In this document: piece by piece, positions 9,090 to 30,858 of the stretch
Position numbering within the stretch: position 1 is the first letter of the stretch
Layout of the letters: every line of letters begins with the position of its first letter
Assembly (NCBI GenBank): GCA_000163695.1
Contig: GG774889.1
Coordinates: 520,042-584,041 of the forward strand
Reading direction: 5' to 3'
From: Bacteroidetes oral taxon 274 str. F0058
Lineage (GTDB): Bacteria > Bacteroidota > Bacteroidia > Bacteroidales > Paludibacteraceae
Length of the DNA stretch: 64,000 nucleotides
The notes under the pieces: generated by a model
The model's database searches: none
What the model was told of the DNA's origin: nothing
Seen by the model: only the letters and a program-made list of their open reading frames with translations
Translations under genes and position numbers: made by a program

Positions 9090-9097
9090 TAACTTTG
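9090..9097 (+). promoter_or_regulatory. -7 promoter motif TAACTTTG for LRR gene 1
   Basis: Preceded by a T7 tract; lies ~84 bp upstream of the ATG, so the leader is long. Confidence 0.5.
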
Positions 9098-9180
9098 TCA
9101 TTTCGGATAAAATAATAGATAAAAGCTATATATAAGGTTCAGATAATATATTTTTATTAACTAAATAATTCGTATAAAAG

Positions 9181-11160
9181 ATGAAAAGAGTTTTTCGAAA
9201 AATGATTATCGCCTTGTTGGCGATATTGTGGGGAGTCTCATCGGTACAGGCACAGAGTGTCAATATGGACCGTTACATTACCCTTACCGTAAAGCAGGGT
9301 GCAGCCGTGCTTATTAATATGGCTTCCAATGCGGCTAATACTCCTATAAAGATAGTAAGTGGCAGCGAAGAGTGGAATATAACCGTTGGTACTCTTTGGA
9401 CAGGGGTAAAGAGTTACACTGCCGGAGCCACCACTATGACGGTATATGGTGATGTTCTGAAATTCGACTGTAACGAGAATATGGAAGATCTTACAGGACT
9501 CGATGTAAGCCACAACGATCTGATGTCAAGTTTGGAATGTACCAATAATTCTCTTACCTCGCTCGACGTAAGTAAAAATGAAAAGCTTATATCACTCCAG
9601 TGTGCGGACAATTTTCTTACCACGCTTGACGTAAGCAGTTGTACTAATTTGAAAACTTTAAATTGCTTCAACAACAACCTTACCACGCTCGACGTAAGTA
9701 AAAATACGCAACTTAGGATAATTTACTGTTTCTCAAATAAACTTACTTCGCTCGACGTAAGTAAGAATACGCAACTGGTGATACTTAATTGTCAAGGTAA
9801 TAAGTTCACAACCGAAACCCTTGATGACCTTTTCTGCTCGTTGCCGCAAAGGAAAGGGTTGCTGACAGGGAGAATAGCGCCCGTTACGAGCTCCTCTTCG
9901 CCCGACAACAGTATGGTGCTTGCCACTAACGGCAATAATGCCACTGCTAAGAATTGGAAAGTCGTATACTATGCCAACAATGCCCCAATTACAGGCTTTA
10001 CCGGCACGAAACAGTGTGAAGGCGGTAGCAATGTCAATATGGACCGTTACATTACGATGTCGGTTACTGAGGGCGACAGTATCAAACTCGATATCTCTGC
10101 CGATGTTGCTGGTACTCAGGTGAAAATATCGAGTGGAGGCGAAGAACAAATCATAACCGTAGGTACCGCCTGGACAGATACTAAAAAGTATGCTGCCAAA
10201 GCCGGAACTATGACTGTCTACGGTAATGTAAATCGATTCAACTGCGGCAAAAACGGTAAAAAAATAACCGGACTTGACATAAGCCACAATACACAACTTA
10301 ACTTATTGTTTTGCGAAGAAAATGATATTCCTTCTCTGGATATAAGTAAAAATACACATTTGGAGTTTCTGGAGTGCTACGACAACAAGATACCTTCATT
10401 AAACTTAAAAAACAGCCCGAAACTGTCGAGATTGAGCTGCTACAGAAATTCCCTTTCTACGCTCGATGTGAGCAATAATACGCTGCTGACATTCTTGAGC
10501 TGTCATACCAATAAACTTACTTCGCTTGACGTGAGCAAAAACACTAATTTGCAAATTCTAAATTGCAGATCGAACCAACTGACTTCGCTCGATGTAAGTA
10601 AAAATACTGAGTTGGAATGGTTGTATTGCTTTGACAACAAGCTATCTTCTCTTGATATAAGTAAGAATATTCATTTAAGTTCGTTGTATTGCTATGGCAA
10701 TAATTTTTCAACTGCTGTTCTCGATGACATTTACTGCTCGTTGCCCGACAGGAAAGGTAAAGACGGAGGTAAAATAGACCCTGCATACAATGCTTCCTCT
10801 CCTGATAAAGATAAAGTACTCGCCTCCAATGGCAACAATGCTATAGCTCGTAACTGGAAAGTGCAATATTTCGAAGATGATTCCGATATTACAGGCTTTA
10901 CCGGCACACATCAGTGCGGAGGTGGTACGGGTATCGATGAAGCGAAAGGCTTACCTGCGCTTGCCGTTTACCCCAATCCCGTCAAAGATATCCTGAATAT
11001 AATTTCCGATACCCCCGTCCACAGCATACGCATATACAACGTATACGGTACGGAAGTAGCCCACGCTACCGATACCAACAGTATCGACGTCTCTCATCTG
11101 CCCGCAGGCGTCTATATGGTGCGTGCCGACGGCAAGGTAACGAGGATTATTAAGGAATAA
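9181..11160 (+). CDS. secreted LRR protein with two modules and a T9SS (Por) C-terminal sorting domain
   Basis: Signal peptide ...SSVQAQ; the N-domain starting SVNMDRYITLTV occurs twice (second copy NVNMDRYITMSV). ~22-aa LRRs (L-TSLDVSKNTxLxxLxCxxNxL), Cys linker ...DDLFCSLPQRKG / ...HQCGGG, and C-terminal domain LAVYPNPVKDILNI...GVYMVRADGKVTRIIKE (Por_Secre_tail-like). Confidence 0.85.
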   Translation: MKRVFRKMIIALLAILWGVSSVQAQSVNMDRYITLTVKQGAAVLINMASNAANTPIKIVSGSEEWNITVGTLWTGVKSYTAGATTMTVYGDVLKFDCNENMEDLTGLDVSHNDLMSSLECTNNSLTSLDVSKNEKLISLQCADNFLTTLDVSSCTNLKTLNCFNNNLTTLDVSKNTQLRIIYCFSNKLTSLDVSKNTQLVILNCQGNKFTTETLDDLFCSLPQRKGLLTGRIAPVTSSSSPDNSMVLATNGNNATAKNWKVVYYANNAPITGFTGTKQCEGGSNVNMDRYITMSVTEGDSIKLDISADVAGTQVKISSGGEEQIITVGTAWTDTKKYAAKAGTMTVYGNVNRFNCGKNGKKITGLDISHNTQLNLLFCEENDIPSLDISKNTHLEFLECYDNKIPSLNLKNSPKLSRLSCYRNSLSTLDVSNNTLLTFLSCHTNKLTSLDVSKNTNLQILNCRSNQLTSLDVSKNTELEWLYCFDNKLSSLDISKNIHLSSLYCYGNNFSTAVLDDIYCSLPDRKGKDGGKIDPAYNASSPDKDKVLASNGNNAIARNWKVQYFEDDSDITGFTGTHQCGGGTGIDEAKGLPALAVYPNPVKDILNIISDTPVHSIRIYNVYGTEVAHATDTNSIDVSHLPAGVYMVRADGKVTRIIKE

Positions 11161-11166
11161 ACATAC

Positions 11167-11200
11167 TGTTAAATCGTTCAGTCGTTGAATTGTTTAACTG
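11167..11200 (+). promoter_or_regulatory. conserved 3'-UTR palindromic element (copy 1 of 10)
   Basis: CTGTTAAATCGTTCAGTCGTTGAATTGTTTAACTG lies directly after the stop codon. A variant of the consensus CTGTTTAAgCGTTCAATCGTTGAACTGTTTAACTG sits at the same place after every array gene. Confidence 0.6.
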
Positions 11201-11215
11201 ATTTTGATAAAAAAA

Positions 11216-11254
11216 CGGGGAGTGGAGTTAGTACCGCTCCTCGTTTTATTTTTT
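11216..11254 (+). terminator. intrinsic terminator of LRR gene 1 (array consensus)
   Basis: CGGGGAGTGGAG...CCGCTCCTCG hairpin followed by TTTTATTTTTT. Near-identical hairpins follow array genes 2 and 6-10; those after genes 3-5 have divergent sequences. Confidence 0.75.
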
Positions 11255-11321: not shown

Positions 11322-11329
11322 TAACTTTG
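11322..11329 (+). promoter_or_regulatory. -7 promoter motif TAACTTTG for LRR gene 2
   Basis: The same motif recurs at 14561, 17137, 19002 (TACCTTTG), 20856 (TAATTTTG), 23468, 24674, 27768 (TAACTTCG) and 29277. Confidence 0.55.
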
Positions 11330-11416
11330 CCGCTGCTAAAAAAAATTGAGATTTAAAAAGCGAGTAGTCGAAACACGAATAGTTAGTTTTATTAATCAAA
11401 TAAATATTTACAAAAG

Positions 11417-14362
11417 ATGAAAAGTGTTTTTCAAAAATGTCTTATCGCTCTTTTGGCGATATTGTGGTGTGTCTCCTTGGTGCAGGCACAGAGTGTCAAT
11501 ATGTCTCGTTACATTACGCTGACTGTCGAGAAAGGAGCGGATATATTGCTTGATATTGCTGCCGATGCGGCTAATACTCCTATAAAGATAGTAAGTGGCG
11601 ACAAAGAACAGACTATAACCGTTGGTACGTCGTGGACAGGGGTAAAGAGTTATGCCGCAGGAGATGCTACTATGACGGTCTATGGCGATGCACTGAAGTT
11701 GGATTGCAGTAAAAACGGTGCAAAAGTTACAGGTTTGAATACAAGCAGCAATGCACAATTGCAATTGTTGTTTTGCTACAAAGACTCTATTAGCTCGCTC
11801 GACCTAAGTAATAATGAAGAGCTGAAAAGCTTGCATTGCTTTGGCGACAAACTCACTTCGCTCGATGTAAGTAAAAATAAACAGTTGCAGTGGTTGAAAT
11901 GCCACGACAACCGACTTACCACTATCGACGTAAGCCATAATACGCAATTAAAATATATGACTTGCTATGGCAACGATTTTACTACTGCGGCTTTGGATAA
12001 TATTTATTGCTTATTACCCGACAGGACAGGACAAAAGGCAGGAGAAATACAGCCGTTGCTAAATGCCTCGTCTTCAGAGAAAAACAAGGTACTCGCTACC
12101 AACGGTAACAATGCCATTGCCCGAAACTGGAAAGTGCAGTACTCTCAGAATAGTTCCGTGATAACAGGCTTCACGGGCACTAAGCAGTGTGGCGGCAGTA
12201 GCGGTGTCAATATGGACAGATACATTACTCTGACTGTCGTATCGGGCGAAGAAATCAATCTGAATTTTTTTGCCGATGCCGATAATACGCCGATAAAAAT
12301 AGTGAGTGGTACCAAAGAACAAACCATAACCGTAGGTGCTTCGTGGACAGGTATGAATAAATACATTACTGACGGCAGTACTATGACGGTTTATGGGAAT
12401 GTCCAAAAATTCAGTTGCGGAGGCAATGGAAAGAATATAACGGGGCTTGATGTAAGCCACAATTCGCAATTGACCATATTATATTGCGATAAAAACGCTA
12501 TTATCTCGCTTAATGTAAGCGGCAATACGGAGTTAAAAAATTTAGATTGTAAAGAGAACGCTATTGCATCTCTCGATTTAAGTAACTGCAAACAGTTGAA
12601 GTGGGTATATTGTAACAAAAATGCTCTTACTTCGCTCAACGTAAGTAAATGTGAACAGTTGGAACTGTTGAAATGCTATGAGAATAAACTTACTTCTCTT
12701 GATGTTGGTAATAATGCTATGTTGAAGATGTTATATTGCGAAGAAAATGCTCTTACATCTCTCGACGTAAGCCGCAATACAGAGTTGATAAGCCTGTATT
12801 GTCAACAAAACTCTATTTCTTCCCTTAACTTGGGTGGTAACACAAAGTTGCGAATATTGTTTTGTTACGAAAATGCTCTTAACTCACTCGATGTAAGTAA
12901 ATGTACACAGTTGGAATGGTTGTATTGTGCGGATAATCCTATTTCTACTCTCGACATAAGTCATAATAAGCATTTAAGTACATTGTATTGCTATGGCAAC
13001 AACTTTACTACTGCCGCCCTCGATGATATTTACTGCTCGCTACCCGACAGGAAAGGCAAGAGCAAAGGGGATATAGCTCCTCTGCTAAATGCTTCGTCTG
13101 TCGACAAAAGCAAGGTGCTTGCTACCAATGGCAACAATGCCGCTGTTAGGGGTTGGAAGGCAATATATTACGAAGGCAACTCGGAGATTACAGGCTTTAC
13201 CGGTACTAAACAGTGTGGCGGCGGTAGCGGTGTCAATATGGACAGATACATTACGCTGACCGTCGATAAAGGTAAGGAAATATTTCTAAGCGTCTATGCC
13301 TCCGCAGATAATACTCCTATAAAAATAGTTAGCGGCGACAAAGAGTATACCTTCAATACAGGCGCCGGCTGGACAAAAATGAGCAAATACACTGCCGGAG
13401 CCGGTACTATGACAATCTACGGTAATGTATGGCAATTCAACTGTCGTGATAATGCCGCAAATATTACGGGCTTGGATGCGAGCCACAATGCAGAATTACA
13501 GACATTGATATGTAATAATAATGCTATTGCCTCACTCAATGTAAGCGGCAATACGGACTTGATAGGTCTATACTGTCTGGGTAATGCTCTGACAACGCTC
13601 GATGTGAGCAAAAATATGAAATTGGCGAATTTGTATTGCTATGAAAATTCACTTACTACCCTCGATATAGGCAACAATACGGAGTTGGCTTTTCTGGATT
13701 GCCGCTCGAACAAACTCACCTCTCTCGACGTTAGCAAGAATAAGAAGCTGAAGACGCTCGATTGTCGCTCCAATAAGCTTACCGCAATTGATTTAAGTAA
13801 CAATACGGAGTTGGAAAGTTTCCATTGTTCCGAAAACGCTCTTTCTACGCTCGACCTGAGCCACAATTCCGAATTAAATTCGTTGTATTGCTACGGCAAC
13901 AACTTTACTACTGCTGCCCTTGACGACATTTACTGCTCTCTGCCAAACAGAGGCGGACAAGCAATAATAGGGTTGATACAACCTCTACTCAATGCTTCGT
14001 CGCCCGATAAAGACAAAGTGCTTGCTACCAACGGCAACAATGCCGCTACTAAAAACTGGGCTCTGACTTATTATGAAAATGATGCCGAGATTACGGGCTT
14101 TACCGGCACACATCAGTGCGGAGGCGGTACAGGCATCGACGAAACTAAAGACTTACTCTCACTTGCCGTCTACCCGAACCCCGTCAAAGACATTCTGAAT
14201 ATAGCTACCGACAAACCCGTACACAACATACGCATATACAACGTATACGGCACGGAAGTAGCCCACGCAACCGATACGAACAGTATCAATGTATCGCACC
14301 TGCCCGCAGGTGTATATATGGTGCGTGCCGACGGTAAGGTAGCAAGGATAATCAAGGAATAA
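11417..14362 (+). CDS. secreted LRR protein with three modules and a T9SS C-terminal domain
   Basis: 981 aa; the N-domain motif GVNMDRYITLTV restarts near nt 12200 and 13222; three LRR blocks, each followed by the linker YCxLPDR.G...ATNGNNA...ITGFTGTxQCGG; C-terminal domain identical in type to gene 1. Confidence 0.85.
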   Translation: MKSVFQKCLIALLAILWCVSLVQAQSVNMSRYITLTVEKGADILLDIAADAANTPIKIVSGDKEQTITVGTSWTGVKSYAAGDATMTVYGDALKLDCSKNGAKVTGLNTSSNAQLQLLFCYKDSISSLDLSNNEELKSLHCFGDKLTSLDVSKNKQLQWLKCHDNRLTTIDVSHNTQLKYMTCYGNDFTTAALDNIYCLLPDRTGQKAGEIQPLLNASSSEKNKVLATNGNNAIARNWKVQYSQNSSVITGFTGTKQCGGSSGVNMDRYITLTVVSGEEINLNFFADADNTPIKIVSGTKEQTITVGASWTGMNKYITDGSTMTVYGNVQKFSCGGNGKNITGLDVSHNSQLTILYCDKNAIISLNVSGNTELKNLDCKENAIASLDLSNCKQLKWVYCNKNALTSLNVSKCEQLELLKCYENKLTSLDVGNNAMLKMLYCEENALTSLDVSRNTELISLYCQQNSISSLNLGGNTKLRILFCYENALNSLDVSKCTQLEWLYCADNPISTLDISHNKHLSTLYCYGNNFTTAALDDIYCSLPDRKGKSKGDIAPLLNASSVDKSKVLATNGNNAAVRGWKAIYYEGNSEITGFTGTKQCGGGSGVNMDRYITLTVDKGKEIFLSVYASADNTPIKIVSGDKEYTFNTGAGWTKMSKYTAGAGTMTIYGNVWQFNCRDNAANITGLDASHNAELQTLICNNNAIASLNVSGNTDLIGLYCLGNALTTLDVSKNMKLANLYCYENSLTTLDIGNNTELAFLDCRSNKLTSLDVSKNKKLKTLDCRSNKLTAIDLSNNTELESFHCSENALSTLDLSHNSELNSLYCYGNNFTTAALDDIYCSLPNRGGQAIIGLIQPLLNASSPDKDKVLATNGNNAATKNWALTYYENDAEITGFTGTHQCGGGTGIDETKDLLSLAVYPNPVKDILNIATDKPVHNIRIYNVYGTEVAHATDTNSINVSHLPAGVYMVRADGKVARIIKE

Positions 14363-14416
14363 TACTGTTTAAGCGTTCAATCGTTGAACTGTTTAACTGA
14401 TGTTTTCATTAAAAAA

Positions 14417-14448
14417 CGGGGAGTGGAGTTGATACCGCTCCTCGTTTT
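14417..14448 (+). terminator. intrinsic terminator of LRR gene 2
   Basis: AACGGGGAGTGGAGTTGATACCGCTCCTCGTTTT. Confidence 0.7.
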
Positions 14449-14656: not shown

Positions 14657-16951
14657 ATGAAAAGTGTTTTTCAAAAATGTCTTATCGCCCTCTTGGCGAT
14701 ATTGTGGGGTGTCTCATCGGTGCAGGCACAGAGTGTCAATATGTCTCGTTACATCACGATGACCGTGAAAAGCGGAGAGAACATAGAACTTGACTTCTCG
14801 GGAGACGCTGACGGTACGCAGGTGAAAATAGTTAGCGGTGCCCAAGAGCAAACCGTAACGGTAGGTACCTCTTGGATAGGTCCTCAAAGGTATACAGCCG
14901 GAGCGGGTACTATGACTGTCTACGGCAATGTATCGAAGTTTAATTGCAATAGTAACGTTGCAAAAATCACAGGACTCGATGTAAGCCACAATTCGGAGTT
15001 GAAAAGTTTGCTGTGTTACAAAAACAAACTCTCGTCGCTCGATGTAAGCAAATGCGGAAAACTGACGGAGCTGGATTGCGGTATTAATTCTCTTACCTCG
15101 CTGAATTTAAGTGGCTGCGGAGAATTGATTGAATTAGATTGTTCGAGCAATAGCCTCACCTCGCTGGACGTAACTCGCAATACGAAATTGACGGATTTGA
15201 GTTGCTACGACAATAAACTTACCTCGATAGATGTAAGCAAAAATACTCAATTGATACTTTTTAGTTGCAGCCTCAACTCTATTGCCTCGCTTGATGTAAA
15301 GAACAATACCAAGTTGGAAGAGTTTTTCTGCCATAGCAATTCGCTCACCTCTCTCGACATAAGTAGCAATACGAGATTGGTAAGGTTGAATTGCAGTAAC
15401 AACAAAATCGAATCGCTCGATTTAAGCAATAATATGAAATTGCAATTTCTCTTTTGCTTTGCCAATTCGCTTACTTCGCTCAAATTTAACCCCGATTCGA
15501 AGTTAAATTCGTTGTATTGCTATGACAATAAATTTACCACTGCCGCTCTCGACGATATTTATTGCTCGCTGCCCGACAGAAAAGGGGTAACCGCAGGAGT
15601 GATGCAACCCTTACATGATGCTTCGTCGCCCGACAAAGATATAGTACTTGCTACCAACGGCAGCAATGCTACTTCCAAAAATTGGAAGATTCTGTATTTT
15701 AAGGATTTTACCGACATTAAGGGCTTTACCGGCACTAAACAGTGTGGCGGAGGTAGCGGTGTCAATATGGAGCGTTACATAACGTTTGCCGTAAAGAAAG
15801 GAGCAAAAATAGAAATCGATTTTGCGGCAGACGAAGAAAACACACCAGTTAAGATAGTGAGCGGTACAACCGACCAGACCATAACCGTAGGTATCGACTG
15901 GGTAGGGTCGATGGATTATGTAGCCGGTGACGCTACTATGACAGTATATGGTAATGTGCGTAGAGTAGACTGCAACGAGAATAAGGGAAATATAACCGCC
16001 CTCGATGCAAGCCACAACGTACCACTTGCGTATATCAATTGCGACAACAACTCTATCTCATCGCTCAATGTGAGCAAAAATACGCAATTGAGTGCACTGT
16101 ACTGTTCCGATAACTCTCTTTCTACGCTCGATGTGAGCAATAACGGACAGCTGGAGTATCTCAACTGTTATAACAACAAGCTTACACAGCTCGACTTGAA
16201 AAATAATACGAAACTGACATTCTTGAACTGCGGTAGAAATACTATCTCTTCGCTCGATTTAAGTAAAAATACGCAATTGAGCATATTGTACTGTAATGAT
16301 AATAAACTTACTTCGCTCGGTATCGACCATAATATCCTTTTGAAGAGTTTTGGTTGTAACAACAACTTGCTCTCGTCTCTCGATGTGAGCAAAAATACAC
16401 AATTGGATATACTGTATTGCTACACCAATCGTCTCACTAAGCTCGATGTAAGCAAAAATACAAAATTGAAAAGATTGTATTGCCATACGAACAATTTTAC
16501 TACTGCCGCCCTCGATGATATTTACTGCTCGCTGCCCGACAGAAAAGGACAAACAGAGGGACAAATACAACCGTTGTTCAACGCCTCGTCTGCCGACAAA
16601 AGCAAGGTTCTTGCTACCAACGGCAACAACGCTATTGCCAAGGGATGGAAGATACAGTATTTCGAGAAAAACACCGATATTACGGGCTTTACGGGCACAC
16701 ATCAGTGCGGAGGCGGTACAGGTATCGATGAAGCGAAAGGCTTACCTGCGCTTGCCGTTTACCCCAATCCCGTAAAAGATGTCTTGAATATAGCTACCGA
16801 CAAACCGGTACACAGCATACGCATATACAATGTATACGGCACGGAAGTAGCCCACGCCACCGATACGAACAGTGTCAATGTATCACACCTACCCGCAGGT
16901 GTCTATATGGTGCGTGCCGACGGCAAGGTAGCAAGGATAATCAAGGAATAA
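14657..16951 (+). CDS. secreted LRR protein with two modules and a T9SS C-terminal domain
   Basis: 764 aa; the first 37 aa are identical to genes 2 and 8; second module starts at GVNMERYITFAV; C-terminal domain conserved. Confidence 0.85.
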   Translation: MKSVFQKCLIALLAILWGVSSVQAQSVNMSRYITMTVKSGENIELDFSGDADGTQVKIVSGAQEQTVTVGTSWIGPQRYTAGAGTMTVYGNVSKFNCNSNVAKITGLDVSHNSELKSLLCYKNKLSSLDVSKCGKLTELDCGINSLTSLNLSGCGELIELDCSSNSLTSLDVTRNTKLTDLSCYDNKLTSIDVSKNTQLILFSCSLNSIASLDVKNNTKLEEFFCHSNSLTSLDISSNTRLVRLNCSNNKIESLDLSNNMKLQFLFCFANSLTSLKFNPDSKLNSLYCYDNKFTTAALDDIYCSLPDRKGVTAGVMQPLHDASSPDKDIVLATNGSNATSKNWKILYFKDFTDIKGFTGTKQCGGGSGVNMERYITFAVKKGAKIEIDFAADEENTPVKIVSGTTDQTITVGIDWVGSMDYVAGDATMTVYGNVRRVDCNENKGNITALDASHNVPLAYINCDNNSISSLNVSKNTQLSALYCSDNSLSTLDVSNNGQLEYLNCYNNKLTQLDLKNNTKLTFLNCGRNTISSLDLSKNTQLSILYCNDNKLTSLGIDHNILLKSFGCNNNLLSSLDVSKNTQLDILYCYTNRLTKLDVSKNTKLKRLYCHTNNFTTAALDDIYCSLPDRKGQTEGQIQPLFNASSADKSKVLATNGNNAIAKGWKIQYFEKNTDITGFTGTHQCGGGTGIDEAKGLPALAVYPNPVKDVLNIATDKPVHSIRIYNVYGTEVAHATDTNSVNVSHLPAGVYMVRADGKVARIIKE

Positions 16952-17189
16952 TACTGTTTAAGCGTTTGATTGTATAATCGTTTAACTGAATTGTAAAACA
17001 AAAAGCGAGGAGCGGCACAATGCTGTTTCTCGTTTTTTATATTCTATCGAGTGTATCCGTAGTGGAGTAAGTTGTATCTATGCGGGAATATGTATGTGGG
17101 GTTGCAGTTATAGTTTTTACAAATTAATAAATTTACTAACTTTGCCGCCCCAAAAGATACTTATATTAATCAACAAATCTCATACAAAA

Positions 17190-23270: not shown

Positions 23271-23558
23271 ATAGACTGTTTAAACGTTCAGTCGTTGAAT
23301 TGTTTAACTGATTTTGATAAAAAACGGGGAGTAGCGTAGAACTGCTCCTCGTTTTATTCTTTGCGTTGTCTTAGTTAATATTGTGGTTTATTTTTACTGA
23401 TTTTTACCTACTAAAACTATGGTAATTGTTTATGCAAAAATAACTTTTATAATTTGAGCTATTTTATTAACTTTGCGTCCCGAAAAATTTGTTTAAAAAA
23501 TACCCGAATTATAAACTAAAAATTATAACTAATATATTAACTAAAATTTTACACAAAA

Positions 23559-24473
23559 ATGCAGAAGTTTTTTGTAACGATTGCTATTGCCATTATAGCG
23601 GCGATATGGAGTATGCCTTTGCAGGCAGAAGATTACAACATCAAAATCGGAGGTAAGGCTATAACTTCCGATAACTACAAAAAAATTACCAAAGAAAACG
23701 GCTTTGATGCCATAAAGAGTGGAACGGTAAGCTACGCCCACGATACGCGTACCCTGACTCTTATTGACGTCATTATAGAGGCGGATAAAAATGTCAACCC
23801 AATAGACATCATCAACACCGAGGAATTGTACACCATTAAGCTCGAGGGTGATAACAAAGTTACTGCCGTAGGAAAATGTAGGGGAATAAACAACAGCAAA
23901 GGTTCGCTGCGTATTACGGGCAGCGGAAAAGTCTCGGTCTCCGGCGATATCTCAATATTCGCTATGAAGAGGCTGACTTTCGATGGAGGCTGTAATGTCA
24001 ATGCAAGTGCTCAGGTAATGGCTTACAACGAAGATATTATAATAGACGGTGTGGAAATGTATGTTAAGGAGAATGGATATCCTGCATTCTGGGCAAGAAC
24101 AGGTATCGAACTCAAAGGTGGTAGCGTGGTAGTCTATCCGGAAGATGCAGTCGTAGGTCAGAAGACAAGTGCAAGCGGCTCTTATTACACATTTATGAGA
24201 AATGAGGAGCATTGTACAGAGGTACGCATAGGTCGCGGCACAGGCATCGACGAAGCGAAAAACTCGCCTTCACTCGCCGTCTACCCGAACCCCGTCAAAG
24301 ATATACTGAATATAGCTACCGACAAACCGGTACACAGCATACGCATATACAACGTATACGGCTCGGAAGTACTCCGAGCTGCCGATACCAACCGTATCGA
24401 CGTATCTCATCTGCCCGCAGGCGTCTATATGGTGAGTGCCGACGGCAAGGTAACGAGGATTATTAAGAAATAA
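23559..24473 (+). CDS. non-LRR secreted protein carrying the same T9SS C-terminal domain (passenger-swapped array member)
   Basis: 304 aa; signal peptide, then a ~220-aa passenger with no LRR and no N-domain motif (GGKAITSDNYKK...VVVYPEDAVVGQK...), then RGTGIDEAKNSPSLAVYPNPVKDILNIATDKPVHSIRIYNVYGSEV...RIIKK. The flanking spacer elements match the rest of the array. Confidence 0.8.
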   Translation: MQKFFVTIAIAIIAAIWSMPLQAEDYNIKIGGKAITSDNYKKITKENGFDAIKSGTVSYAHDTRTLTLIDVIIEADKNVNPIDIINTEELYTIKLEGDNKVTAVGKCRGINNSKGSLRITGSGKVSVSGDISIFAMKRLTFDGGCNVNASAQVMAYNEDIIIDGVEMYVKENGYPAFWARTGIELKGGSVVVYPEDAVVGQKTSASGSYYTFMRNEEHCTEVRIGRGTGIDEAKNSPSLAVYPNPVKDILNIATDKPVHSIRIYNVYGSEVLRAADTNRIDVSHLPAGVYMVSADGKVTRIIKK

Positions 24474-24765
24474 ATATACTGTTTAAACGTTCAGTCGTTG
24501 AATTGTTTAACTGATTATGATAAAAAAACGGGGAGTGGAGTTAATACCGCTCCTCGTTTTGTGATTTGCGTTGTCTTAGTTAATATTGCGGTTGGTTTTT
24601 GCTGATAGTTGCCCACTTTAAATTGTAGTAATTGTTTTTGCAGAAATAACTTTTATAATTTAAGCTATTTTATTAACTTTGCCGCTGCTAATGCGGGAAA
24701 AGAAGAAGCATAAAAATAGGTTCAGAATAATATTTTTTTTATTCATTAAATAATTCGTACAGAAG

Positions 24766-27525
24766 ATGAAAAGTGTTTTTCAAAAATGTCTTATCGCCCT
24801 TTTGGCGATATTGTGGGGTGTCTCCTCGGTGCAGGCACAGAGTGTCAATATGTCTCGTTACATTACGCTGACCGTAAAGGAGGGTGCAGATATAAAACTT
24901 GACCTCTGGGCAGATGCTATCGGCACGCCGGTGAAAATAGTCAGCGGCAACCAAGAGAAGACTATAACTGTGGGTAAAGATTGGATTGGCTATAAGGGTT
25001 ATGCTGCCGGAGCCGGCACTATGACCATTTACGGCAATGTGCTCAGATTTGATTGCAACTCCAACGACGATAATATTACGGCATTAGACATAAGCCACAA
25101 TACTGAACTGACAGTTTTGTATTGCTACAAGAATGCCCTTAATACCCTCGACGTAAGCCACAATAATAAACTCAAAGTTTTGTATTGTTATGGGAATAAA
25201 TTTACCACCGCAGTCATAGACGATATTTTTTGCTCTCTTCCCGATATGAAAGGACAAAAAAGCGGAGAAATACAGCCCGCCCTCGACGATTCATCTCCTG
25301 ACAACAACATAGTGTTGGCAGCCAACGGCAAGAACGCTACCGACAAAAATTGGAAGATACGGTATTTTGACGACAACTCCGATATTACGGGCTTCAAGGG
25401 AACTAAGCAGTGTGGTGGCGGAGTCGATATGTCTCGTTATATTACGTTGACCGTAAAAAAAGACGAGAAAATACATCTGAATATTTGGGCGGAAGCTGCC
25501 GATACGCCTATAAAAGTAGTGAGCGGCGACAAAGAACAGACCCTAACGGTCGGTACTGCCTGGACTGGTTATCGTAATTATATTGCCGGAGCGGGTAGTA
25601 TGACGGTCTATGGTAAAGTGTTGAAGTTCGATTGTAACGAGAATATGGAAAATATTACGGGAATCGATGTAAGCCACAATACCCAGCTGGCGTTTTTAGA
25701 TTGCGGCTCCAACTCTCTTACAACTCTTGACGTAAGCAACAACAAGGAACTGGTTAATTTAGGCTGCGGTAGTAATTCGCTATCCTCTATTGACGTGAAA
25801 AATAATACTAAATTGGAGTGGTTTGACTGTAAAGACAACTCTCTTACGTCGCTCGATGTAACCAAAAATACCCAGCTGAAATGGCTGGGTTGTAACGATA
25901 ACAGCATCTCTATGCTCGACATAAAAAACAATACTATGTTGAGAATATTGTATTGCTATAATAACTCTCTTACGTCGCTCGATGTAGCCAATAATACACA
26001 ATTGCAGGGATTGTATTGCCAAGACAATAATTTTACCACCGAAGCTTTGGACGATATTTTCTGTTCGCTGCCCGATAGGAAAGGAACAACCAACGGAATA
26101 GCACAACTTTTGTTCGATGCTTCGTCGTCCGATAAAAGCAAAGTACTTGCTGCTAACGGTAGTAATGCGACCAATAAAAATTGGAAAGTTCAGTATTTTG
26201 GAGACGATGCCGATATTACGGGTTTCACGGGTACTAAGCAGTGTGGCGGCGGTAGCGGTGTCAATATGGACAGATACATTACTATGACTGTCGATAAGGG
26301 TAAGGATATATACCTAAGTGTTTATGCCTCCGCAGATAACACTCCGATAAAAGTAGTGAGTGGCAACAAAGAGTATACCTTCAATGCAAGTATCGGCTGG
26401 ACAAAAATGAGCCAATACACTGCCGGAGCAGGTACTATGACAATATACGGTAATGTGCTGAGATTCAATTGCAGCAAAAACGGCACAAAAATTATGGGGC
26501 TTGATGTAGGTCATAATACAGATTTGGTGAATTTATTATGTTACGAAAATGCAATCCTGACCCTCGACGTAAGTAAAAATACACAATTGGAATACCTGCG
26601 TTGTGATAAAAACCAAATATCGACTATTGATCTGAAAAACTGTCCGTCTCTGAAAGTATTGATTTGCGGTACCAACACCATATCCACGCTCGACGTAAGT
26701 AAAAATAATGAGCTCGAATGGTTGATGTGCGATGATAACTCCATTAAGTCGCTCGATGTAAGCAAAAAACCGAAATTAACAATGATAAATTGTCAAATCA
26801 ACAAAATTACATCGCTCAACGTAAGTAACAATCCGAAATTGACCTCTTTGCAGTGTTACGATAATTCGATTACTTCTCTGAATGTTGCCGAAAGTACGTT
26901 ATTGGAAGAACTATATTGCGAAAGAAATAAGATAGAAACATTAGATATTAGTCGAAACACGGCACTAAAAATATTTGACTGCTCCAACAACCTTATCACT
27001 GCGATTGATGCAAGTAAAAATACGAAACTGACGGAACTAACCTGTTATGGCAATCCATTGACTACTGCTGCGTTAGATGATATGTATTGTTTGCTGCCCA
27101 CTGTTACCGGTACTACCGATTATGGCGACCCAATAGGCATTTACCCTATGTACAACTCCGATGATGCCAACAGTGCAGTCGTACTCGCCTCTAACGGCAA
27201 GAACGCTACCGACAAAAATTGGAAAATTGCTTATTATGAAAGTGCCGATAATATTACAGGCTTTACGGGCACACATCAGTGCGGAGGCGGCACAGGTATC
27301 GACGAAACGAAAGGTTTACCCTCACTCGCCGTCTACCCGAACCCCGTCAAAGATGTCTTGAATATAGCTACCGACAAACCGGTGCACAGCATACGCATAT
27401 ACAACGTATACGGCACGGAAGTAGCCCAAGCCGCCGATACCAAGAGTATCAATGTGTCGCACCTGCCCGCAGGCGTCTATATGGTGAGTGCCGACGGCAA
27501 AGTAACGAGGATTATAAAAGAATAA
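24766..27525 (+). CDS. secreted LRR protein with three modules and a T9SS C-terminal domain
   Basis: 919 aa; modules restart at GVDMSRYITLTV and GVNMDRYITMTV; the third N-domain is ~85% nt-identical to the third N-domain of gene 2. Confidence 0.85.
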   Translation: MKSVFQKCLIALLAILWGVSSVQAQSVNMSRYITLTVKEGADIKLDLWADAIGTPVKIVSGNQEKTITVGKDWIGYKGYAAGAGTMTIYGNVLRFDCNSNDDNITALDISHNTELTVLYCYKNALNTLDVSHNNKLKVLYCYGNKFTTAVIDDIFCSLPDMKGQKSGEIQPALDDSSPDNNIVLAANGKNATDKNWKIRYFDDNSDITGFKGTKQCGGGVDMSRYITLTVKKDEKIHLNIWAEAADTPIKVVSGDKEQTLTVGTAWTGYRNYIAGAGSMTVYGKVLKFDCNENMENITGIDVSHNTQLAFLDCGSNSLTTLDVSNNKELVNLGCGSNSLSSIDVKNNTKLEWFDCKDNSLTSLDVTKNTQLKWLGCNDNSISMLDIKNNTMLRILYCYNNSLTSLDVANNTQLQGLYCQDNNFTTEALDDIFCSLPDRKGTTNGIAQLLFDASSSDKSKVLAANGSNATNKNWKVQYFGDDADITGFTGTKQCGGGSGVNMDRYITMTVDKGKDIYLSVYASADNTPIKVVSGNKEYTFNASIGWTKMSQYTAGAGTMTIYGNVLRFNCSKNGTKIMGLDVGHNTDLVNLLCYENAILTLDVSKNTQLEYLRCDKNQISTIDLKNCPSLKVLICGTNTISTLDVSKNNELEWLMCDDNSIKSLDVSKKPKLTMINCQINKITSLNVSNNPKLTSLQCYDNSITSLNVAESTLLEELYCERNKIETLDISRNTALKIFDCSNNLITAIDASKNTKLTELTCYGNPLTTAALDDMYCLLPTVTGTTDYGDPIGIYPMYNSDDANSAVVLASNGKNATDKNWKIAYYESADNITGFTGTHQCGGGTGIDETKGLPSLAVYPNPVKDVLNIATDKPVHSIRIYNVYGTEVAQAADTKSINVSHLPAGVYMVSADGKVTRIIKE

Positions 27526-27868
27526 ATGCCGTTTAAACGTTCGATTGTTGAACTGTTTAACTGAGGTTTTCATTAAAAACGGGGAGCATAACAAGAATTG
27601 TTCCTCGTTTTTTGTTATGTTTTTGGTGATTCATCTTTTATAGGATTTGCTAACCAATGGCTTGTAATTCATAAGCTTTATTTCACTACGAAAATTACCA
27701 TAGATTATCTAAATAACACAGTATGATTTTTATAATGGAGCCTGAACACCGTTAAAAAAGTTTTTTATTAACTTCGCCGACTAAAAAGTAAAAATCAGAT
27801 ATGGGTTGATATTTGTTTGAATTTCAGGAATTTTCATAAATAATAAATATATAATAATCAATAAAAAA

Positions 27869-29077
27869 ATGAGTAAACTTTTTCGAAAAAAAATGATTGT
27901 TGCCATTTTGGCAATAATGTGCGGTGCTGCCATCGTGCAGGCACAAGAGGTAAATATGTCTCGCTACGTTACATTGAATGTAACAAAGAATGAAAAAGCG
28001 TCGCTTAGCCTCACAGCCGACGCAGACAACACTCCGTTGAAAATAGTAAGCGGCGGTCAGGAAAATGCCGTAACTATCGGTACATCGTGGACAGATAGCA
28101 AAGAGTACGCCTCAGTAGACGGTACTATAACAATCTACGGTAATGTGCAGAAAATCAATTGTAGTAATAACGATAAAAAGTTGACAGGTATCGACGTAAG
28201 CCATAATGCCGAGCTAACCATACTGTTTTGCTTCAAAAACGCTCTTACTACGCTCGACGTAGGTAATCTTACCAAGTTGGAGTATTTATATTGCAACGAC
28301 AATAAACTTACCTCGCTTGATTTAAGCAAAAACAAACAATTGTCGAAATTAAATTGCTTCGGAAATACTATATCTTCACTGGATCTAAGTCAAAATTCAC
28401 AATTGGAAATCGTGCGTTGCTACAAGAATGTACTTACTAAGTTCAATATAAACGGCTGCAACCAACTGACACTTCTGCACTGCGGAGAGAATCGTCTTAC
28501 CTCGCTCGATGTAAGTGCAAATACAAAACTCGAACGTCTGTATTGTGATAATAATGATATATCCAAACTTGATGTAAGCAACAATGAGCAACTGAATACG
28601 TTGTTTTGTTACAACAATAAATTATCCGTAGAGGCTTTCGATGACCTTTTTTGTTCTTTGCCTAATAGAAAAGATAAAGAAGCGGGTAAAATAGCCCCTA
28701 CCCTCAATAAGTCGTCTGCCGAAAAAGACAAAATACTCTCCACCAATGGTATAAATGCTATTACAAGAAACTGGGATGTACAGTATTATGAAGAGGAATA
28801 CAATATTAGCGGTTTCAAAGGCACACATCAGTGCGGAGGCAGTACAGGCATCGACGAAACGAAAGGCTTGCCTGCACTCGCCGTTTACCCGAACCCTGTC
28901 AAAGATGTCCTGAATATAGCTACCGACAAACCGGTGCACAGCATACGCATATACAACGCGTACGGCACGGAAGTAGCCCACGCCGCCGACGCTACGAGTA
29001 TCGATGTATCGCAGCTGCCCGCAGGCGTCTATATGGTGCGTGCCGACGGCAAGGTAACCAGAATTATTAAGGAATAA
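27869..29077 (+). CDS. secreted LRR protein with one module and a T9SS C-terminal domain
   Basis: 402 aa; signal peptide, N-domain, ~8 LRRs, linker and conserved C-terminal domain. Confidence 0.85.
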   Translation: MSKLFRKKMIVAILAIMCGAAIVQAQEVNMSRYVTLNVTKNEKASLSLTADADNTPLKIVSGGQENAVTIGTSWTDSKEYASVDGTITIYGNVQKINCSNNDKKLTGIDVSHNAELTILFCFKNALTTLDVGNLTKLEYLYCNDNKLTSLDLSKNKQLSKLNCFGNTISSLDLSQNSQLEIVRCYKNVLTKFNINGCNQLTLLHCGENRLTSLDVSANTKLERLYCDNNDISKLDVSNNEQLNTLFCYNNKLSVEAFDDLFCSLPNRKDKEAGKIAPTLNKSSAEKDKILSTNGINAITRNWDVQYYEEEYNISGFKGTHQCGGSTGIDETKGLPALAVYPNPVKDVLNIATDKPVHSIRIYNAYGTEVAHAADATSIDVSQLPAGVYMVRADGKVTRIIKE

Positions 29078-29362
29078 GTATGCTTGTTGGGACGTTCAAT
29101 CGTTGAACTGTTTAACAGAGTCTCATATAAAAAACGGGGAGTAGTGTAGAGCTGCTCCTCGTTTTGTTGATTGAATTTTTGAAACTATTATTTCTGTATG
29201 TGATTTATATCTCTTGATTATTAAGGCGTTATGGTTGCTTTTCGTAAAAAAATTTTTATAATTTAGTTTCTTTTCATAACTTTGCATCGGCAGAGAATAA
29301 AATAAGTTAGTGTATTAGAATGAGTAAATGTTTTTTAATTAATTAAATAAAAATGCATTAAT

Positions 29363-30634
29363 ATGAAGAGAGAACTTAAAACAATTCTTATCGCCTTTGG
29401 AACGATATTATGGAGTGCTTCCTCTGTCTGGGCACAAGATGTCAATATGTCTCGTTACATTACGCTTAAGGTAAAAAAGGGGACAAATATAAAGCTCGAC
29501 CTTTGGGCGGATGCTGCCGGTACTACTATAAAAATAGTTAGCGGCAGCAACGAGCAAACCGTAAAAGTAGATAGCGCCTGGACACACTCTCGAAACTATG
29601 TCGCCGAAGCCGGTACTATGACTATTTACGGCAATGTGCTGAGGTTTAACTGTTGTGATAACAATGCAAATGTTACCGAATTGAATGCAAGTCATAATGC
29701 ACAATTGCAAGGGTTGTTCTGCAGTAATAATACTATTACTTCGATAGACGTAAGTAAAAATCCGGAACTGTTATGGTTGTATTGCCACGAAAACTCTTTG
29801 GCAACGCTTGATGTCAGTCATAGTACTAAATTGAAAGGTCTGCGATGTTATCAAAACACTCTTACCTCGCTCGATGTAAGCCATAATGAACAATTGACGG
29901 AGTTGGATTGCTCGGAAAACAAGATTTCGTCTCTCGATGTAAGCAAAAATACACTGTTGACGAAATTGTTTTGTCTGAAAAACGCTATAACAACACTTGA
30001 CGTAAGTAAAAATACTCAATTGACGATTTTAGACTGTGGAAAAAATAATCTTACATCTCTAGATGTTAGCAAAAACACAAGTTTAGAAGAACTGTATTGC
30101 TTTGGAAATTCTATTGCTACACTTGATTTTAGCCGTAATGCGAGTTTAAAATCGGTGTCTTGTTATAATAATAAGTTTACTGCCAAGGTATTAGATGATA
30201 TTTACTGTTCGCTGCCCGATAGGAAAGGGGGAGAAGAAACAGGTATAATAAATCCCGTATTAAATGCTTCGTCTCCCGATAATAGTATAGTACTTGCCAC
30301 CAACGGTAAAAACGCTACCGCTAGAAACTGGCAGATACAGTATTACGAAGATGACACTGATGTTACGGGCTTTACCGGTACGCACCAATGTGTAGGTGGC
30401 ACAGGCATCGACGAAACGAAAGATTTACCGGCATTCAGCATATATCCTAACCCCGTCAAAGACATTTTGAATATAGCTCCCGACAAACCCGTACACAGTA
30501 TACATATATACAACACATACGGCACGGAAGTAGCCCACGCTACCGACGCTACGAGTATCGATGTATCGCACCTGTCCGCAGGCGTCTATATGGTGCATGC
30601 CGATGGCAAGGTAACAAGGATAATTAAGGAATAA
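29363..30634 (+). CDS. secreted LRR protein with one module and a T9SS C-terminal domain (last array member)
   Basis: 423 aa; N-domain, ~9 LRRs, linker and C-terminal domain with minor divergence (AFSIYPNPVKDILNIAPDKPVHSIHIYNTYGTEV). Confidence 0.85.
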   Translation: MKRELKTILIAFGTILWSASSVWAQDVNMSRYITLKVKKGTNIKLDLWADAAGTTIKIVSGSNEQTVKVDSAWTHSRNYVAEAGTMTIYGNVLRFNCCDNNANVTELNASHNAQLQGLFCSNNTITSIDVSKNPELLWLYCHENSLATLDVSHSTKLKGLRCYQNTLTSLDVSHNEQLTELDCSENKISSLDVSKNTLLTKLFCLKNAITTLDVSKNTQLTILDCGKNNLTSLDVSKNTSLEELYCFGNSIATLDFSRNASLKSVSCYNNKFTAKVLDDIYCSLPDRKGGEETGIINPVLNASSPDNSIVLATNGKNATARNWQIQYYEDDTDVTGFTGTHQCVGGTGIDETKDLPAFSIYPNPVKDILNIAPDKPVHSIHIYNTYGTEVAHATDATSIDVSHLSAGVYMVHADGKVTRIIKE

Positions 30635-30858
30635 GTATTCTGTTGAGACGTTCAATCGTTGAACTGTTGAACTGAGTCTCTGATTAAAAAAACGGAGAGT
30701 AGTGTAGAGCTGCTCCTCGTTTTGTTGATTGCGTTAGCTTGGGGCGAATATCGCAAGTCGTTTTTACTGACGGTTGCCCGTTAGACTACCTGTTTCTATC
30801 CCGAATAGACAGTAGGCTAAAATCCGCAATTTTTTAGAAATGGGCAATTCCCCGGAGG

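What the first reader, a model, noticed from the sequence alone, without database searches (positions are those of the whole stretch)
9090..30724. 21.6-kb head-to-tail array of ten paralogous T9SS-cargo genes with cassette-like conserved spacers
Ten consecutive same-strand genes all encode a signal peptide and end in an almost invariant ~65-aa Por/T9SS C-terminal sorting domain. Nine are LRR proteins built from the same parts; one has a different passenger domain. Each gene sits in a repeated cassette with the order: stop codon, 35-bp palindromic element, terminator, TAnnTTTG promoter, ~80-nt leader. Arrays of surface-exposed LRR proteins with homogenised ends are the typical architecture of variable adhesin or host-interaction families. 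This array takes up a third of the window.
Basis: partly seen in the sequence, partly recalled or inferred. Interest (0 to 1): 0.85.

Follow-up and report, generated by a model that had tools for sequence, protein, structure and literature searches.

The report
Variable tandem array of secreted LRR proteins
A periodontitis-associated mouth bacterium carries ten back-to-back genes for modular leucine-rich-repeat proteins with a type IX secretion tail (probably surface proteins), and different strains carry reshuffled versions of the array; this is a real but familiar kind of variable adhesin locus.

Summary
[quoted passage not shown] Each has a Sec signal peptide and a type-A T9SS C-terminal domain that scores above the curated cut-offs.

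Nine genes are built from 17 copies of one module: a 61-aa N-domain, 3-13 InlJ-type 21-aa cysteine-ladder LRRs and a ~66-aa cap, with 1-3 modules per gene. The tenth gene, G7, carries a short beta-helix passenger instead.

Every gene is its own transcription unit, ordered stop, hairpin, terminator, -7 box, leader. The homologous 36-nt palindrome follows 9 of 10 genes. The -7 box TAnnTTTG is exact in 9 of 10. Leaders fall into two classes, ~80-90 nt (seven genes) and ~45 nt (three genes).

The ends are only partly homogenised: the CTD is 85% identical at the DNA level, and its synonymous divergence is about half that of the rest of the genes.

Metagenome contigs of the same species show real structural polymorphism. 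Arrays have 10 or 11 or more genes. F0058's G3 is a clean fusion of two genes, with the crossover at a module boundary. Other strains show module swaps, an extra gene and a loss of two LRRs.

I found no recombinase, silent cassette or inverton. The closest precedent is the Flavobacterium psychrophilum tandem LRR array. Verdict: new member of a known kind, moderate interest.

The parts
9090..9097 (+). -7 promoter box TAACTTTG of G1. Equivalent boxes lie at 11322, 14561, 17137, 18992, 20856, 23468, 24674, 27769 (TAACTTCG) and 29277.
   Evidence: one box per spacer, 45-92 nt before each ATG; window background 0.75 per kb
9181..11160 (+). G1, 659 aa: signal peptide, 2 modules (6 and 8 LRR), CTD
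   Evidence: EFI16882.1 'internalin-related protein'
11166..11201 (+). 36-nt imperfect palindrome or hairpin after the G1 stop. Homologous copies lie at 14365-14400, 16954-16989, 20642-20679, 23276-23311, 24479-24514, 27529-27564, 29084-29119 and 30640-30675.
11209..11247 (+). Intrinsic-terminator-like hairpin with A-tract and T-tract after G1. Equivalents lie at 14411-14448, 17000-17038, 18759-18781, 20690-20729, 23319-23355, 24522-24560, 27575-27612, 29129-29165 and 30682-30730.
   Evidence: fold z-scores -3.5 to -6.5 for the 3' flanks
11417..14362 (+). G2, 981 aa: 3 modules (5, 10 and 8 LRR), CTD
14657..16951 (+). G3, 764 aa: 2 modules (10 and 9 LRR), CTD. It is a fusion allele; the crossover with respect to the two-gene allele lies at 15722-15729.
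17190..18707 (+). G4, 505 aa from Met33: 1 module (13 LRR), CTD. Its 3' flank has a non-homologous hairpin at 18712-18749.
19047..20636 (+). G5, 529 aa: 2 modules (5 and 3 LRR), CTD
20910..23270 (+). G6, 786 aa: 2 modules (8 and 12 LRR), CTD. An allele with 10 LRR in the second module (744 aa) occurs in L037.
23559..24473 (+). G7, 304 aa: signal peptide, ~210-aa right-handed beta-helix passenger with no Pfam family, CTD
24766..27525 (+). G8, 919 aa: 3 modules (3, 7 and 10 LRR), CTD
27869..29077 (+). G9, 402 aa: 1 module (8 LRR), CTD. The AF2 model has mean pLDDT 86.8.
   Evidence: EFI16890.1 'internalin-J'
29363..30634 (+). G10, 423 aa: 1 module (9 LRR), CTD
57207..58721 (-). G11, 504 aa: dispersed eleventh family member with the same N-domain, Cys-LRR, cap and a more divergent CTD. 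It has its own TAccTTTG box and no palindrome.

Best explanation
This is a tandem family of independently transcribed genes for T9SS-exported, probably surface-anchored, solenoid proteins of the periodontitis-associated Bacteroidetes oral taxon 274.

Shown:
- Each gene has a Bacteroidetes-type -7 box, a leader, a signal peptide, a passenger, a type-A CTD, and then a hairpin and a terminator.
- The passenger of nine genes is 1-3 copies of one module. The module is a 61-aa beta N-domain, n x 21-aa InlJ-type cysteine-ladder LRRs (Cys in 100 of 100 and Asn in 98 of 100 internal units) and a ~66-aa cap.
- Variability is concentrated at LRR positions 8, 9, 11, 13 and 14, which flank the ladder Cys.
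- The array is structurally polymorphic between strains. Breakpoints fall at conserved module parts.

Inferred: the proteins are exported by Sec, carried across the outer membrane by the T9SS, and have the CTD removed in the disordered GGGTGIDE linker by the PorU sortase. They are then attached to anionic LPS, so that the LRR concave faces are displayed as adhesins for host or microbial ligands. This follows P. gingivalis InlJ, P. intermedia AdpC/AdpF and T. forsythia BspA.

Inferred: the repertoire diversifies by unequal homologous recombination and occasional gene conversion between paralogous N-domain, cap, CTD-flank and 63-nt LRR sequences. The outcomes are gene fusion or fission, module swaps and LRR gain or loss.

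Inferred: the post-stop hairpin most likely acts at the RNA level as a 3'-end stabiliser or auxiliary terminator.
For: Domain calls: PF18962 and TIGR04183 score above cut-off in 10 of 10 genes, and LRR_4 in 9 of 10. InlJ 3bz5 matches at E=2e-63 by sequence and is the top Foldseek hit. The CTD of the G7 model superposes on T9SS substrate CTDs 8glk_D, 8glj_D and 8qb1. The AF2 model of G9 has a low-confidence linker at 324-341 before the CTD.

Module map: 17 modules and 134 LRR-register units are in perfect 21-aa register.

Transcription-unit signals.

Partial concerted evolution of the 3' block: CTD pS is 0.36 against 0.62-0.79 elsewhere.

Strain polymorphism:
- The two-gene 443 + 658 aa allele, in place of the 764-aa G3, is supported by about eleven loci from eleven contigs and samples: both genes read in L002, L003, L037-L040 and L048, one of the two genes in L006 and L041, and the duplicated breakpoint alone in L056.
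- A single clean crossover lies at 15722-15729, in the GFTGT-coding motif.
- The fusion allele also occurs in ERZ27319316 and, at 96% identity, in L044.
- A G1.1 + G3.2 chimera is seen in two independent contigs, L055 and L057.
- Single contigs show an extra 15-LRR gene with a complete cassette (L048), gene losses (L051, L053) and an exact 126-nt (two-LRR) deletion in G6 (L037).
- Paralogues are below 90% identical. This makes assembly chimeras less likely.

Precedents: the F. psychrophilum LRR array has 16-23 genes that vary by isolate (PMC8400371). Its TIGR04183 LRR proteins are lost from supernatants of gldD and gldG mutants (PMC5682007). P. gingivalis InlJ binds Candida Als3 (PMC5915736). 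LRR and beta-helix proteins are common P. intermedia T9SS cargo (PMC11969387).
Against: - No experimental data exist for this organism. Expression, secretion, CTD cleavage and ligands are untested.
- T9SS machinery genes were not examined.
- Between-strain pN/pS is 0.04-0.23 for array genes, so there is no gene-wide signal of positive selection.
- Most variant arrays come from short-read metagenome assemblies. Several variants rest on one contig.
- The crossover tract shared by the two parental copies is short, about 8-16 nt in the alleles available. That is less than classical RecA recombination usually needs.
- Hairpin covariation is not significant against shuffles: 1 compensatory pair, and 234 of 500 shuffles reach the covariation score.
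Confidence: 0.78

Rival explanations
1. The array is a programmed antigenic or phase-variation system. A clone would switch its displayed LRR repertoire at high frequency by site-specific inversion of promoters, or by copying silent cassettes into an expression site. The conserved palindrome would be the recombination site.
For: The palindrome is conserved at every cassette boundary. Array structure varies widely between samples. Homopolymer runs lie near promoters and in leaders.
Against: - Every gene has its own promoter box, signal peptide and CTD, so none is a silent cassette.
- No conserved inverted repeats bracket the promoters.
- No recombinase, integrase, transposase or reverse transcriptase appears among the ORFs of 150 aa or more outside the array that Pfam scanned.
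- The mapped breakpoints lie inside coding modules, not at the palindrome.
- Contigs within a sample are collinear, and orthologues are 95-99% identical on average.
Confidence: 0.08
2. The array is an integron-like or otherwise mobile gene-cassette array. The palindrome would be an attC-like site. It contains GTTTAAC and GTTAAAC, which resemble the integron core sites RYYYAAC and GTTRRRY.
For: The gene-plus-imperfect-palindrome layout fits, as does the resemblance to core sites (the integron consensus is from my own knowledge).
Against: - No IntI-type integrase or attI lies on either side. The flanks are a DUF4876/TonB-like/DUF6850 operon and an SPFH gene, conserved in all strains.
- The 'cassettes' are paralogues, each with its own promoter and terminator. 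Integron cassettes are not like this.
- The element is ~36 nt, shorter than attC sites.
- In the metagenome scan, 17 of 18 loci holding the pattern matched the array region of the window; L046 gave no match to the window at the thresholds used.
Confidence: 0.02
3. The array is real but static. On this view the apparent strain variants are chimeric metagenome assemblies of a repetitive locus.
For: All variants except F0058 itself come from short-read assemblies. Several contigs end inside the array (L002, L048). Some variants are seen only once (L048, L051, L053, ODHS01000007).
Against: - The same junctions recur in independent samples and assemblers: 443 + 658 in about eleven loci from eleven contigs (some showing only one of the two genes or the breakpoint), and G1.1 + G3.2 in 2 contigs.
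- The variant genes contain sequence absent from F0058, namely module X.1, which is only 47% identical to any window module.
- Paralogue identity is below 90%, so k-mer collapse is unlikely.
- Both 443-aa and 764-aa forms sit in one 90% protein cluster on many contigs.
Confidence: 0.04
4. The proteins are T9SS cargo, but they are not primarily adhesins. They could be released decoys, immune modulators such as TLR2 agonists like BspA, or nutrient- or glycan-binding proteins.
Against: Type-A CTD cargo characterised in oral Bacteroidota is mostly surface-anchored. The characterised homologues InlJ, AdpC/AdpF and BspA mediate attachment or invasion. The upstream operon is divergently transcribed and shows no shared regulation signal.
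Confidence: 0.12

Closest known systems
Flavobacterium psychrophilum tandem LRR surface-protein array (~21 kb, 16-23 consecutive genes)
   Same: Both are consecutive same-strand LRR genes with TIGR04183 CTDs, about 21 kb long. Gene number differs between strains. Secretion depends on the T9SS/gliding machinery (PMC8400371; PMC5682007).
   Different: This array is in a different order, Bacteroidales, and in a human oral organism. Here the passenger is 1-3 complete N-domain/LRR/cap modules per protein, of the 21-aa cysteine-ladder class. The array also holds a non-LRR beta-helix member and a conserved post-stop palindrome. I did not compare sequences with the F. psychrophilum genes directly.
Listeria monocytogenes InlJ (PDB 3bz5) and Porphyromonas gingivalis InlJ (PG0350)
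   Same: Both share the 21-residue LRR with an invariant cysteine ladder: E=2e-63 to 3bz5, which is also the top fold match. P. gingivalis InlJ is an internalin-family surface protein that mediates coadhesion (PMC5915736).
   Different: There is no LPXTG anchor, internalin N-cap or inter-repeat Ig domain. NF033187 scores 87-276 bits against a cut-off of 1700. InlJ is a single gene, not a modular tandem family.
Tannerella forsythia BspA and Prevotella intermedia AdpC/AdpF (BspA-like LRR T9SS cargo)
   Same: These are LRR surface proteins of periodontal Bacteroidota. BspA carries a Por C-terminal secretion domain, and P. intermedia LRR proteins are predicted T9SS cargo. Adhesion and invasion roles are shown for BspA and AdpF.
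   Different: BspA has 23-aa TpLRR-type repeats followed by BACON and Big_2 domains. Here the repeats are 21 aa with a Cys ladder, and the domains that flank the LRRs gave no meaningful Pfam match.
Variable lymphocyte receptors and other modular LRR repertoires
   Same: Both have an LRR solenoid with N- and C-caps, a variable repeat number, and variability concentrated on the beta-strand face. VLR structures appear among the fold hits.
   Different: No somatic or programmed assembly is shown here. Diversity is germ-line, between strains.

Membership tests
T9SS type-A CTD cargo (TIGR04183 / PF18962) | HMM match above the curated cut-off at the extreme C-terminus | tested here: met
   All 10 genes, plus G11 for PF18962: PF18962 37-50 bits (GA 27) and TIGR04183 35-39 bits (cut-off 23).
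T9SS type-A CTD cargo (TIGR04183 / PF18962) | N-terminal Sec signal peptide for periplasmic transit | tested here: met
   By inspection: a positively charged n-region, a hydrophobic core and a (V/L/I)(Q/R/W)A|Q site in 9 of 10 genes; G7 has LQA|ED. No predictor was run.
T9SS type-A CTD cargo (TIGR04183 / PF18962) | CTD beta-sandwich fold preceded by a flexible linker | tested here: met
   AF2 models of G9 and G7. The G7 CTD superposes on 8glk_D and 8glj_D (TMt 0.63-0.64) and on the mirolase CTD 8qb1. The linker has low pLDDT.
T9SS type-A CTD cargo (TIGR04183 / PF18962) | Host genome encodes the T9SS machinery (PorK/L/M/N, Sov, PorU, PorV) | not tested
   No such genes lie in the window.
T9SS type-A CTD cargo (TIGR04183 / PF18962) | PorU-dependent CTD cleavage and A-LPS anchoring | not testable with these tools
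   Needs proteomics or mutants.
InlJ-class cysteine-ladder LRR | 21-residue repeat with a conserved Cys in the ladder position | tested here: met
   63-nt period. Cys in 100 of 100 and Asn in 98 of 100 internal units. 3bz5 at E=2e-63.
Listeria class-1 internalin InlJ (NF033187 equivalog) | Full-length match above 1700 bits, with LPXTG sorting signal and internalin cap and IR domains | tested here: not met
   Scores are 87-276 bits and cover the LRR part only. The C-terminus is a T9SS CTD.
BspA-like / TpLRR proteins | ~23-residue LRR with downstream BACON or Big_2 domains | tested here: not met
   The repeat is 21 aa. No BACON or Big_2 hit was found.
Tandem, copy-number-variable T9SS LRR gene array (F. 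psychrophilum type) | Consecutive same-strand LRR + TIGR04183 genes whose number differs between strains | tested here: met
   There are 10 genes in F0058. Other strains carry an 11-gene form and further variants.
Integron gene cassettes | Adjacent IntI integrase and attI; promoterless, unrelated cassettes ending in attC | tested here: not met
   No integrase in the window. The genes are paralogues, each with its own promoter.
Inverton or silent-cassette antigenic variation | Inverted repeats bracketing promoters plus a recombinase, or promoterless donor cassettes | tested here: not met
   No conserved IR pairs flank the promoters. All genes are complete. No recombinase was found.

The most novel reading that the evidence does not exclude
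The conserved module boundaries and the CTD-hairpin-terminator block may be selected recombination handles. On this reading the array is a combinatorial LRR-receptor generator: modules and whole cassettes would re-assort frequently, possibly within a single host population. The post-stop hairpin would be a dedicated cis-element, acting either as a recombination hotspot or as a post-transcriptional control shared by the family. This would be a bacterial germ-line analogue of VLR-style LRR assembly.
Probability: 0.12. Interest if true: 0.75.

Novelty: new member of a known kind. Interest (0 to 1): 0.4.

Why it matters
Oral taxon 274 is a little-studied, periodontitis-associated organism. This locus, with G11, is the largest block of predicted T9SS cargo genes in the window, so it is an obvious candidate for how the organism attaches to host tissue or to partner microbes.

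The strain-to-strain fusion, fission and swapping of whole LRR modules gives a concrete, testable picture of how a T9SS cargo family diversifies. It also gives a set of natural chimeras for mapping ligand specificity.

There is a practical lesson too. Short-read MAGs will mis-count these genes, so the locus could serve as a strain-typing marker.

Tried and rejected
- **Genome scan for the source and its relatives.** The source genome was not returned. The best relatives were only 42% identical (Porphyromonadaceae COT-184) and carried single genes, not arrays. No cross-species array comparison was therefore possible.
- **Exact look-ups.** The G5 look-up found nothing. The G6 look-up returned only the same strain.
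- **Integron reading.** Rejected: no integrase, and the genes are paralogues with their own promoters.
- **Inverton reading.** Rejected: one search found only AT-rich, non-conserved inverted repeats.
- **Gene-wide positive selection between strains.** Not supported: pN/pS is 0.04-0.23.
- **Recent gene conversion.** Not supported: only one paralogous tract reaches 88%.
- **Covariation test of the hairpin.** Inconclusive: 93% of cells pair, against 53% or less when the partners are slid, but shuffles do as well.
- **Pfam on distant relatives of the G7 passenger.** It named no family.
- **Rfam.** It found only tRNAs and the 16S end in the window.
- **Literature searches.** I found no paper on this locus.


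Full report
[quoted passage not shown] The array genes are annotated there as 'internalin-related protein', 'internalin-J' or 'hypothetical protein'. The literature treats this organism as periodontitis-associated (PMC3925233).

The array is flanked upstream by a divergent DUF4876 lipoprotein / TonB-receptor-like / DUF6850 operon and a Dps gene. Downstream lie a small ORF and an SPFH/Band-7 gene. None of the ORFs of 150 aa or more outside the array that I scanned hit a recombinase, transposase, integrase or reverse-transcriptase family. GC content across the array (0.39-0.43) matches its surroundings.

**The observation.** Ten + strand ORFs fill 9181-30634. All ten end in a domain that scores above the curated thresholds of PF18962 (44-50 bits, GA 27) and TIGR04183 (35-39 bits, cut-off 23). 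Nine score above GA for LRR_4 and give partial, LRR-only matches to the InlJ model.

All ten N-termini look like signal-peptidase-I signals, and nine have Gln right after the predicted cleavage site. That pattern is the known 'Q-rule' of Bacteroidota, which I cite from my own knowledge. G4's true start is most likely Met33 (17190). The promoter box lies inside the longer ORF, and gene callers on other strains give 505 aa.

**Anatomy of the proteins.** A regex-anchored dissection shows 17 copies of one module. Each is a 61-aa N-domain (VNMSRYITLTV...), followed by n x 21-aa units in perfect register, followed by a ~66-aa cap (LDDIYCSLPDRKG...NWK.QYY...ITGFTGT.QC). The LRR counts are:

| Gene | LRR units per module |
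|---|---|
| G1 | 6, 8 |
| G2 | 5, 10, 8 |
| G3 | 10, 9 |
| G4 | 13 |
| G5 | 5, 3 |
| G6 | 8, 12 |
| G8 | 3, 7, 10 |
| G9 | 8 |
| G10 | 9 |

That is 134 register units in all.

Among the 100 internal units, Cys at position 12 is invariant, Asn15 occurs in 98, and Leu7, Leu10 and Leu20 in 87-97. Positions 8, 9, 11, 13 and 14 are the most variable, at 3.0-3.8 bits. By analogy with other LRR proteins these positions lie on the beta-strand face.

The repeats are of the InlJ cysteine-ladder class. Listeria InlJ (3bz5) matches at E=2e-63 by sequence and is the top Foldseek hit for the AF2 model of G9 (pLDDT 86.8). That model also shows an all-beta N-domain, a mixed alpha/beta cap, a low-confidence linker at 324-341 and a beta-sandwich CTD.

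**Anatomy of the spacers.** Each spacer (238-343 nt) contains exactly one TAnnTT[T/C]G box, 45-92 nt before the ATG. It is exact in nine, and G9 has TAACTTCG. The window-wide + strand frequency of the exact motif is 0.75 per kb. Leaders fall into a ~78-92-nt class (G1, G2, G3, G7, G8, G9, G10) and a ~45-nt class (G4, G5, G6).

Directly after nine of the ten stop codons lies a homologous ~36-nt imperfect palindrome. About 10 nt further on comes a G+C-rich hairpin with an upstream A-tract and a downstream T-tract. G4's 3' flank is not homologous, but it also folds into a hairpin followed by a terminator-like hairpin.

The palindrome pattern occurs 7 times in the window at up to 3 mismatches, all in the array, against 0 expected. 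A scan of the JGI/ENA metagenome collection returned 18 loci, of which 17 matched the array region of the window; L046 gave no match at the thresholds used.

On 17 distinct copies the 12-bp stem is paired in 93% of cells, against 53% or less when the partners are slid. There are many A-U to G-U changes, which keep pairing only on the sense strand, and one compensatory change (G-U to U-A). Column shuffles do as well, however, so selection for pairing as such is not demonstrated. I read the element as a probable RNA hairpin, acting as a 3' stabiliser or auxiliary terminator. That is an inference.

A COT-184 homologue (L023) keeps a recognisably homologous terminator, -7 box and G4-like leader, although the match is only 42% identical over its best segment. 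The flanks are therefore old.

**How homogenised are the ends?** Mean pairwise DNA identity is 85% for the last 65 codons. It is 57-70% for the N-domain, LRR, cap and signal-peptide parts. The proportion of synonymous differences is 0.36 in the CTD, against 0.62-0.79 elsewhere apart from the short signal-peptide segment (0.45), with pN/pS about 0.2. This fits partial concerted evolution of the CTD-hairpin-terminator block, or nucleotide-level constraint on it.

It is not recent homogenisation. Only one paralogous tract of 60 nt or more reaches 88%, namely the G6 and G7 3' ends plus their spacers, 448 nt. Orthologues between strains average 95-99% identity. Nearest-neighbour relations differ between the N-domain and the cap of the same module. 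For example, G2.3 pairs with G8.3 by N-domain but with G2.2 by cap. That points to a mosaic history.

**Variation between strains.** Exact-protein look-ups and the DNA-pattern scan retrieved about 40 same-species contigs. One metagenome strain is collinear with the window at 99.6%.

The commonest alternative replaces G3 (764 aa) with two complete genes of 443 and 658 aa. About eleven loci from eleven contigs and samples support it. Both genes are read in L002, L003, L037-L040 and L048; L006 and L041 show one of the two, and L056 shows only the duplicated breakpoint. The spacer between the two genes carries the full hairpin-terminator-promoter-leader cassette. The 658-aa gene begins with a module (X.1) that is absent from F0058.

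I scored 306 sites at which the two parental copies differ. F0058's G3 follows copy A up to 15721 and copy B from 15730 on, apart from a few scattered sites. The crossover lies in the GFTGT-coding motif at the end of the cap. A 1.38-kb unequal-crossover deletion is the simplest reading. The fusion allele also occurs in a 96%-identical strain (L044). Both 443-aa and 764-aa forms are frequent in the same 90% protein cluster.

Further variants:
- A G1.1 + G3.2 chimeric first gene, seen in two independent contigs (L055, L057).
- An extra 15-LRR gene whose ends match G2 (94%) and G3 (93%) (L048).
- Loss of the 443-aa gene (L051).
- Loss of G2 and of the 658-aa gene, with a G9-like gene placed ahead of G8 (L053).
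- A gene combining a G1.1-like module with G2.3 after G7, on a 179-kb contig that also lacks the upstream operon and G1 (L041 and L042).
- An exact 126-nt, two-LRR deletion in G6 (L037).

Single-contig variants should be treated as provisional.

Array genes show 2-5 times more synonymous divergence between strains than the upstream flank (pS 0.04-0.13 against 0.008-0.03; some downstream flank genes, such as ZIP at 0.11 and OMP207 at 0.18, overlap the array range). Their pN/pS is 0.04-0.23, so gene-wide purifying selection dominates.

**Mechanism.** These points are shown: independent cassettes, T9SS-type sorting domains, the InlJ-class modular LRR architecture, and recombination-generated structural polymorphism.

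These points are inferred from established T9SS biology and from characterised homologues: Sec export, T9SS translocation, PorU cleavage in the flexible linker, anchoring to A-LPS, and display of LRR or beta-helix solenoids as adhesins. The precedents are as follows. F. psychrophilum LRR proteins with TIGR04183 disappear from the supernatants of gldD and gldG mutants (PMC5682007). P. gingivalis InlJ binds Candida Als3 (PMC5915736). BspA and AdpF act in invasion.

**Comparison with what is known, and novelty.** The closest described system is the ~21-kb F. psychrophilum array of 16-23 consecutive LRR genes, whose number varies between isolates (PMC8400371). The present locus is the same kind of thing in a human oral Bacteroidales organism.

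It has four particulars: whole-module repetition within proteins, documented gene fusion and fission at module boundaries, a beta-helix member sharing the same cassette, and a conserved post-stop hairpin.

It is not an InlJ orthologue, because it scores far below the NF033187 cut-off and has no LPXTG. It is not BspA-like either, because the repeat is 21 aa rather than 23 aa. Searches found no paper describing this locus.

I rate it a new member of a known kind and of moderate interest.

Noticed in passing
window 1-620: The 3' end of a 16S rRNA gene (1-66) is followed by tRNA-Ile (222-296), tRNA-Ala (315-391), a terminator-like hairpin (~400-430) and then a Dps/ferritin gene (599-1066). No 23S rRNA follows, so this 16S copy appears unlinked from the 23S.
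   Followed up: partly
window 57207-58721 (-): An eleventh family member, G11 (504 aa), lies about 26 kb from the array on the other strand. It has the same N-domain, 21-aa Cys-LRR and cap, a more divergent CTD and its own TAccTTTG box, but no palindrome after the stop. A palindrome-like remnant (GTTTAAGCGTTTAATTGTCGAAAAC) lies upstream of its promoter region, next to the stop of the purF-like gene.
   Followed up: partly
window 60608-63391 (-): Three tandem paralogous lipoprotein genes (227, 211 and 401 aa) share near-identical N-terminal ~200 aa (MKHASILAIVLCLLVSCNRNTIKI...). They have no Pfam hit and sit in the lowest-GC part of the window (0.35-0.38).
   Followed up: no
L023 9700-11640 (Porphyromonadaceae bacterium COT-184): A homologue (42% identity over the best matched segment) keeps a homologous terminator (AAAACGAGAAGTAGTG...CTCTCGTTTTG), the same -7 box context and a 5' leader very similar to that of G4. 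The non-coding flanks are thus conserved across genera.
   Followed up: partly
window 23625-24260 (+), G7 passenger: The beta-helix passenger belongs to an unnamed domain family. It has no Pfam model, and it is repeated up to 20 times in giant proteins of 2,000-6,000 aa from metagenomes.
   Followed up: partly
L041 and L042 (contig ODHS01000007.1, 179 kb): This strain seems to lack the DUF6850/TonB-like/DUF4876 operon and G1 next to the array. It carries module G2.3 in a new gene after G7, which suggests a larger rearrangement. It is seen in one contig only.
   Followed up: partly
L005 3278 (ERZ25463870), equivalent to window 11376-11460: An 85-nt deletion removes the leader end and start codon of G2 in one strain, and the gene caller extends the ORF to 1028 aa. 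This is either a possible pseudogene or start shift, or an assembly error.
   Followed up: no
window 35918-36604 (-): An ankyrin-repeat protein (228 aa), unusual for bacteria, sits next to a small OMP beta-barrel gene and a ZIP transporter gene.
   Followed up: no
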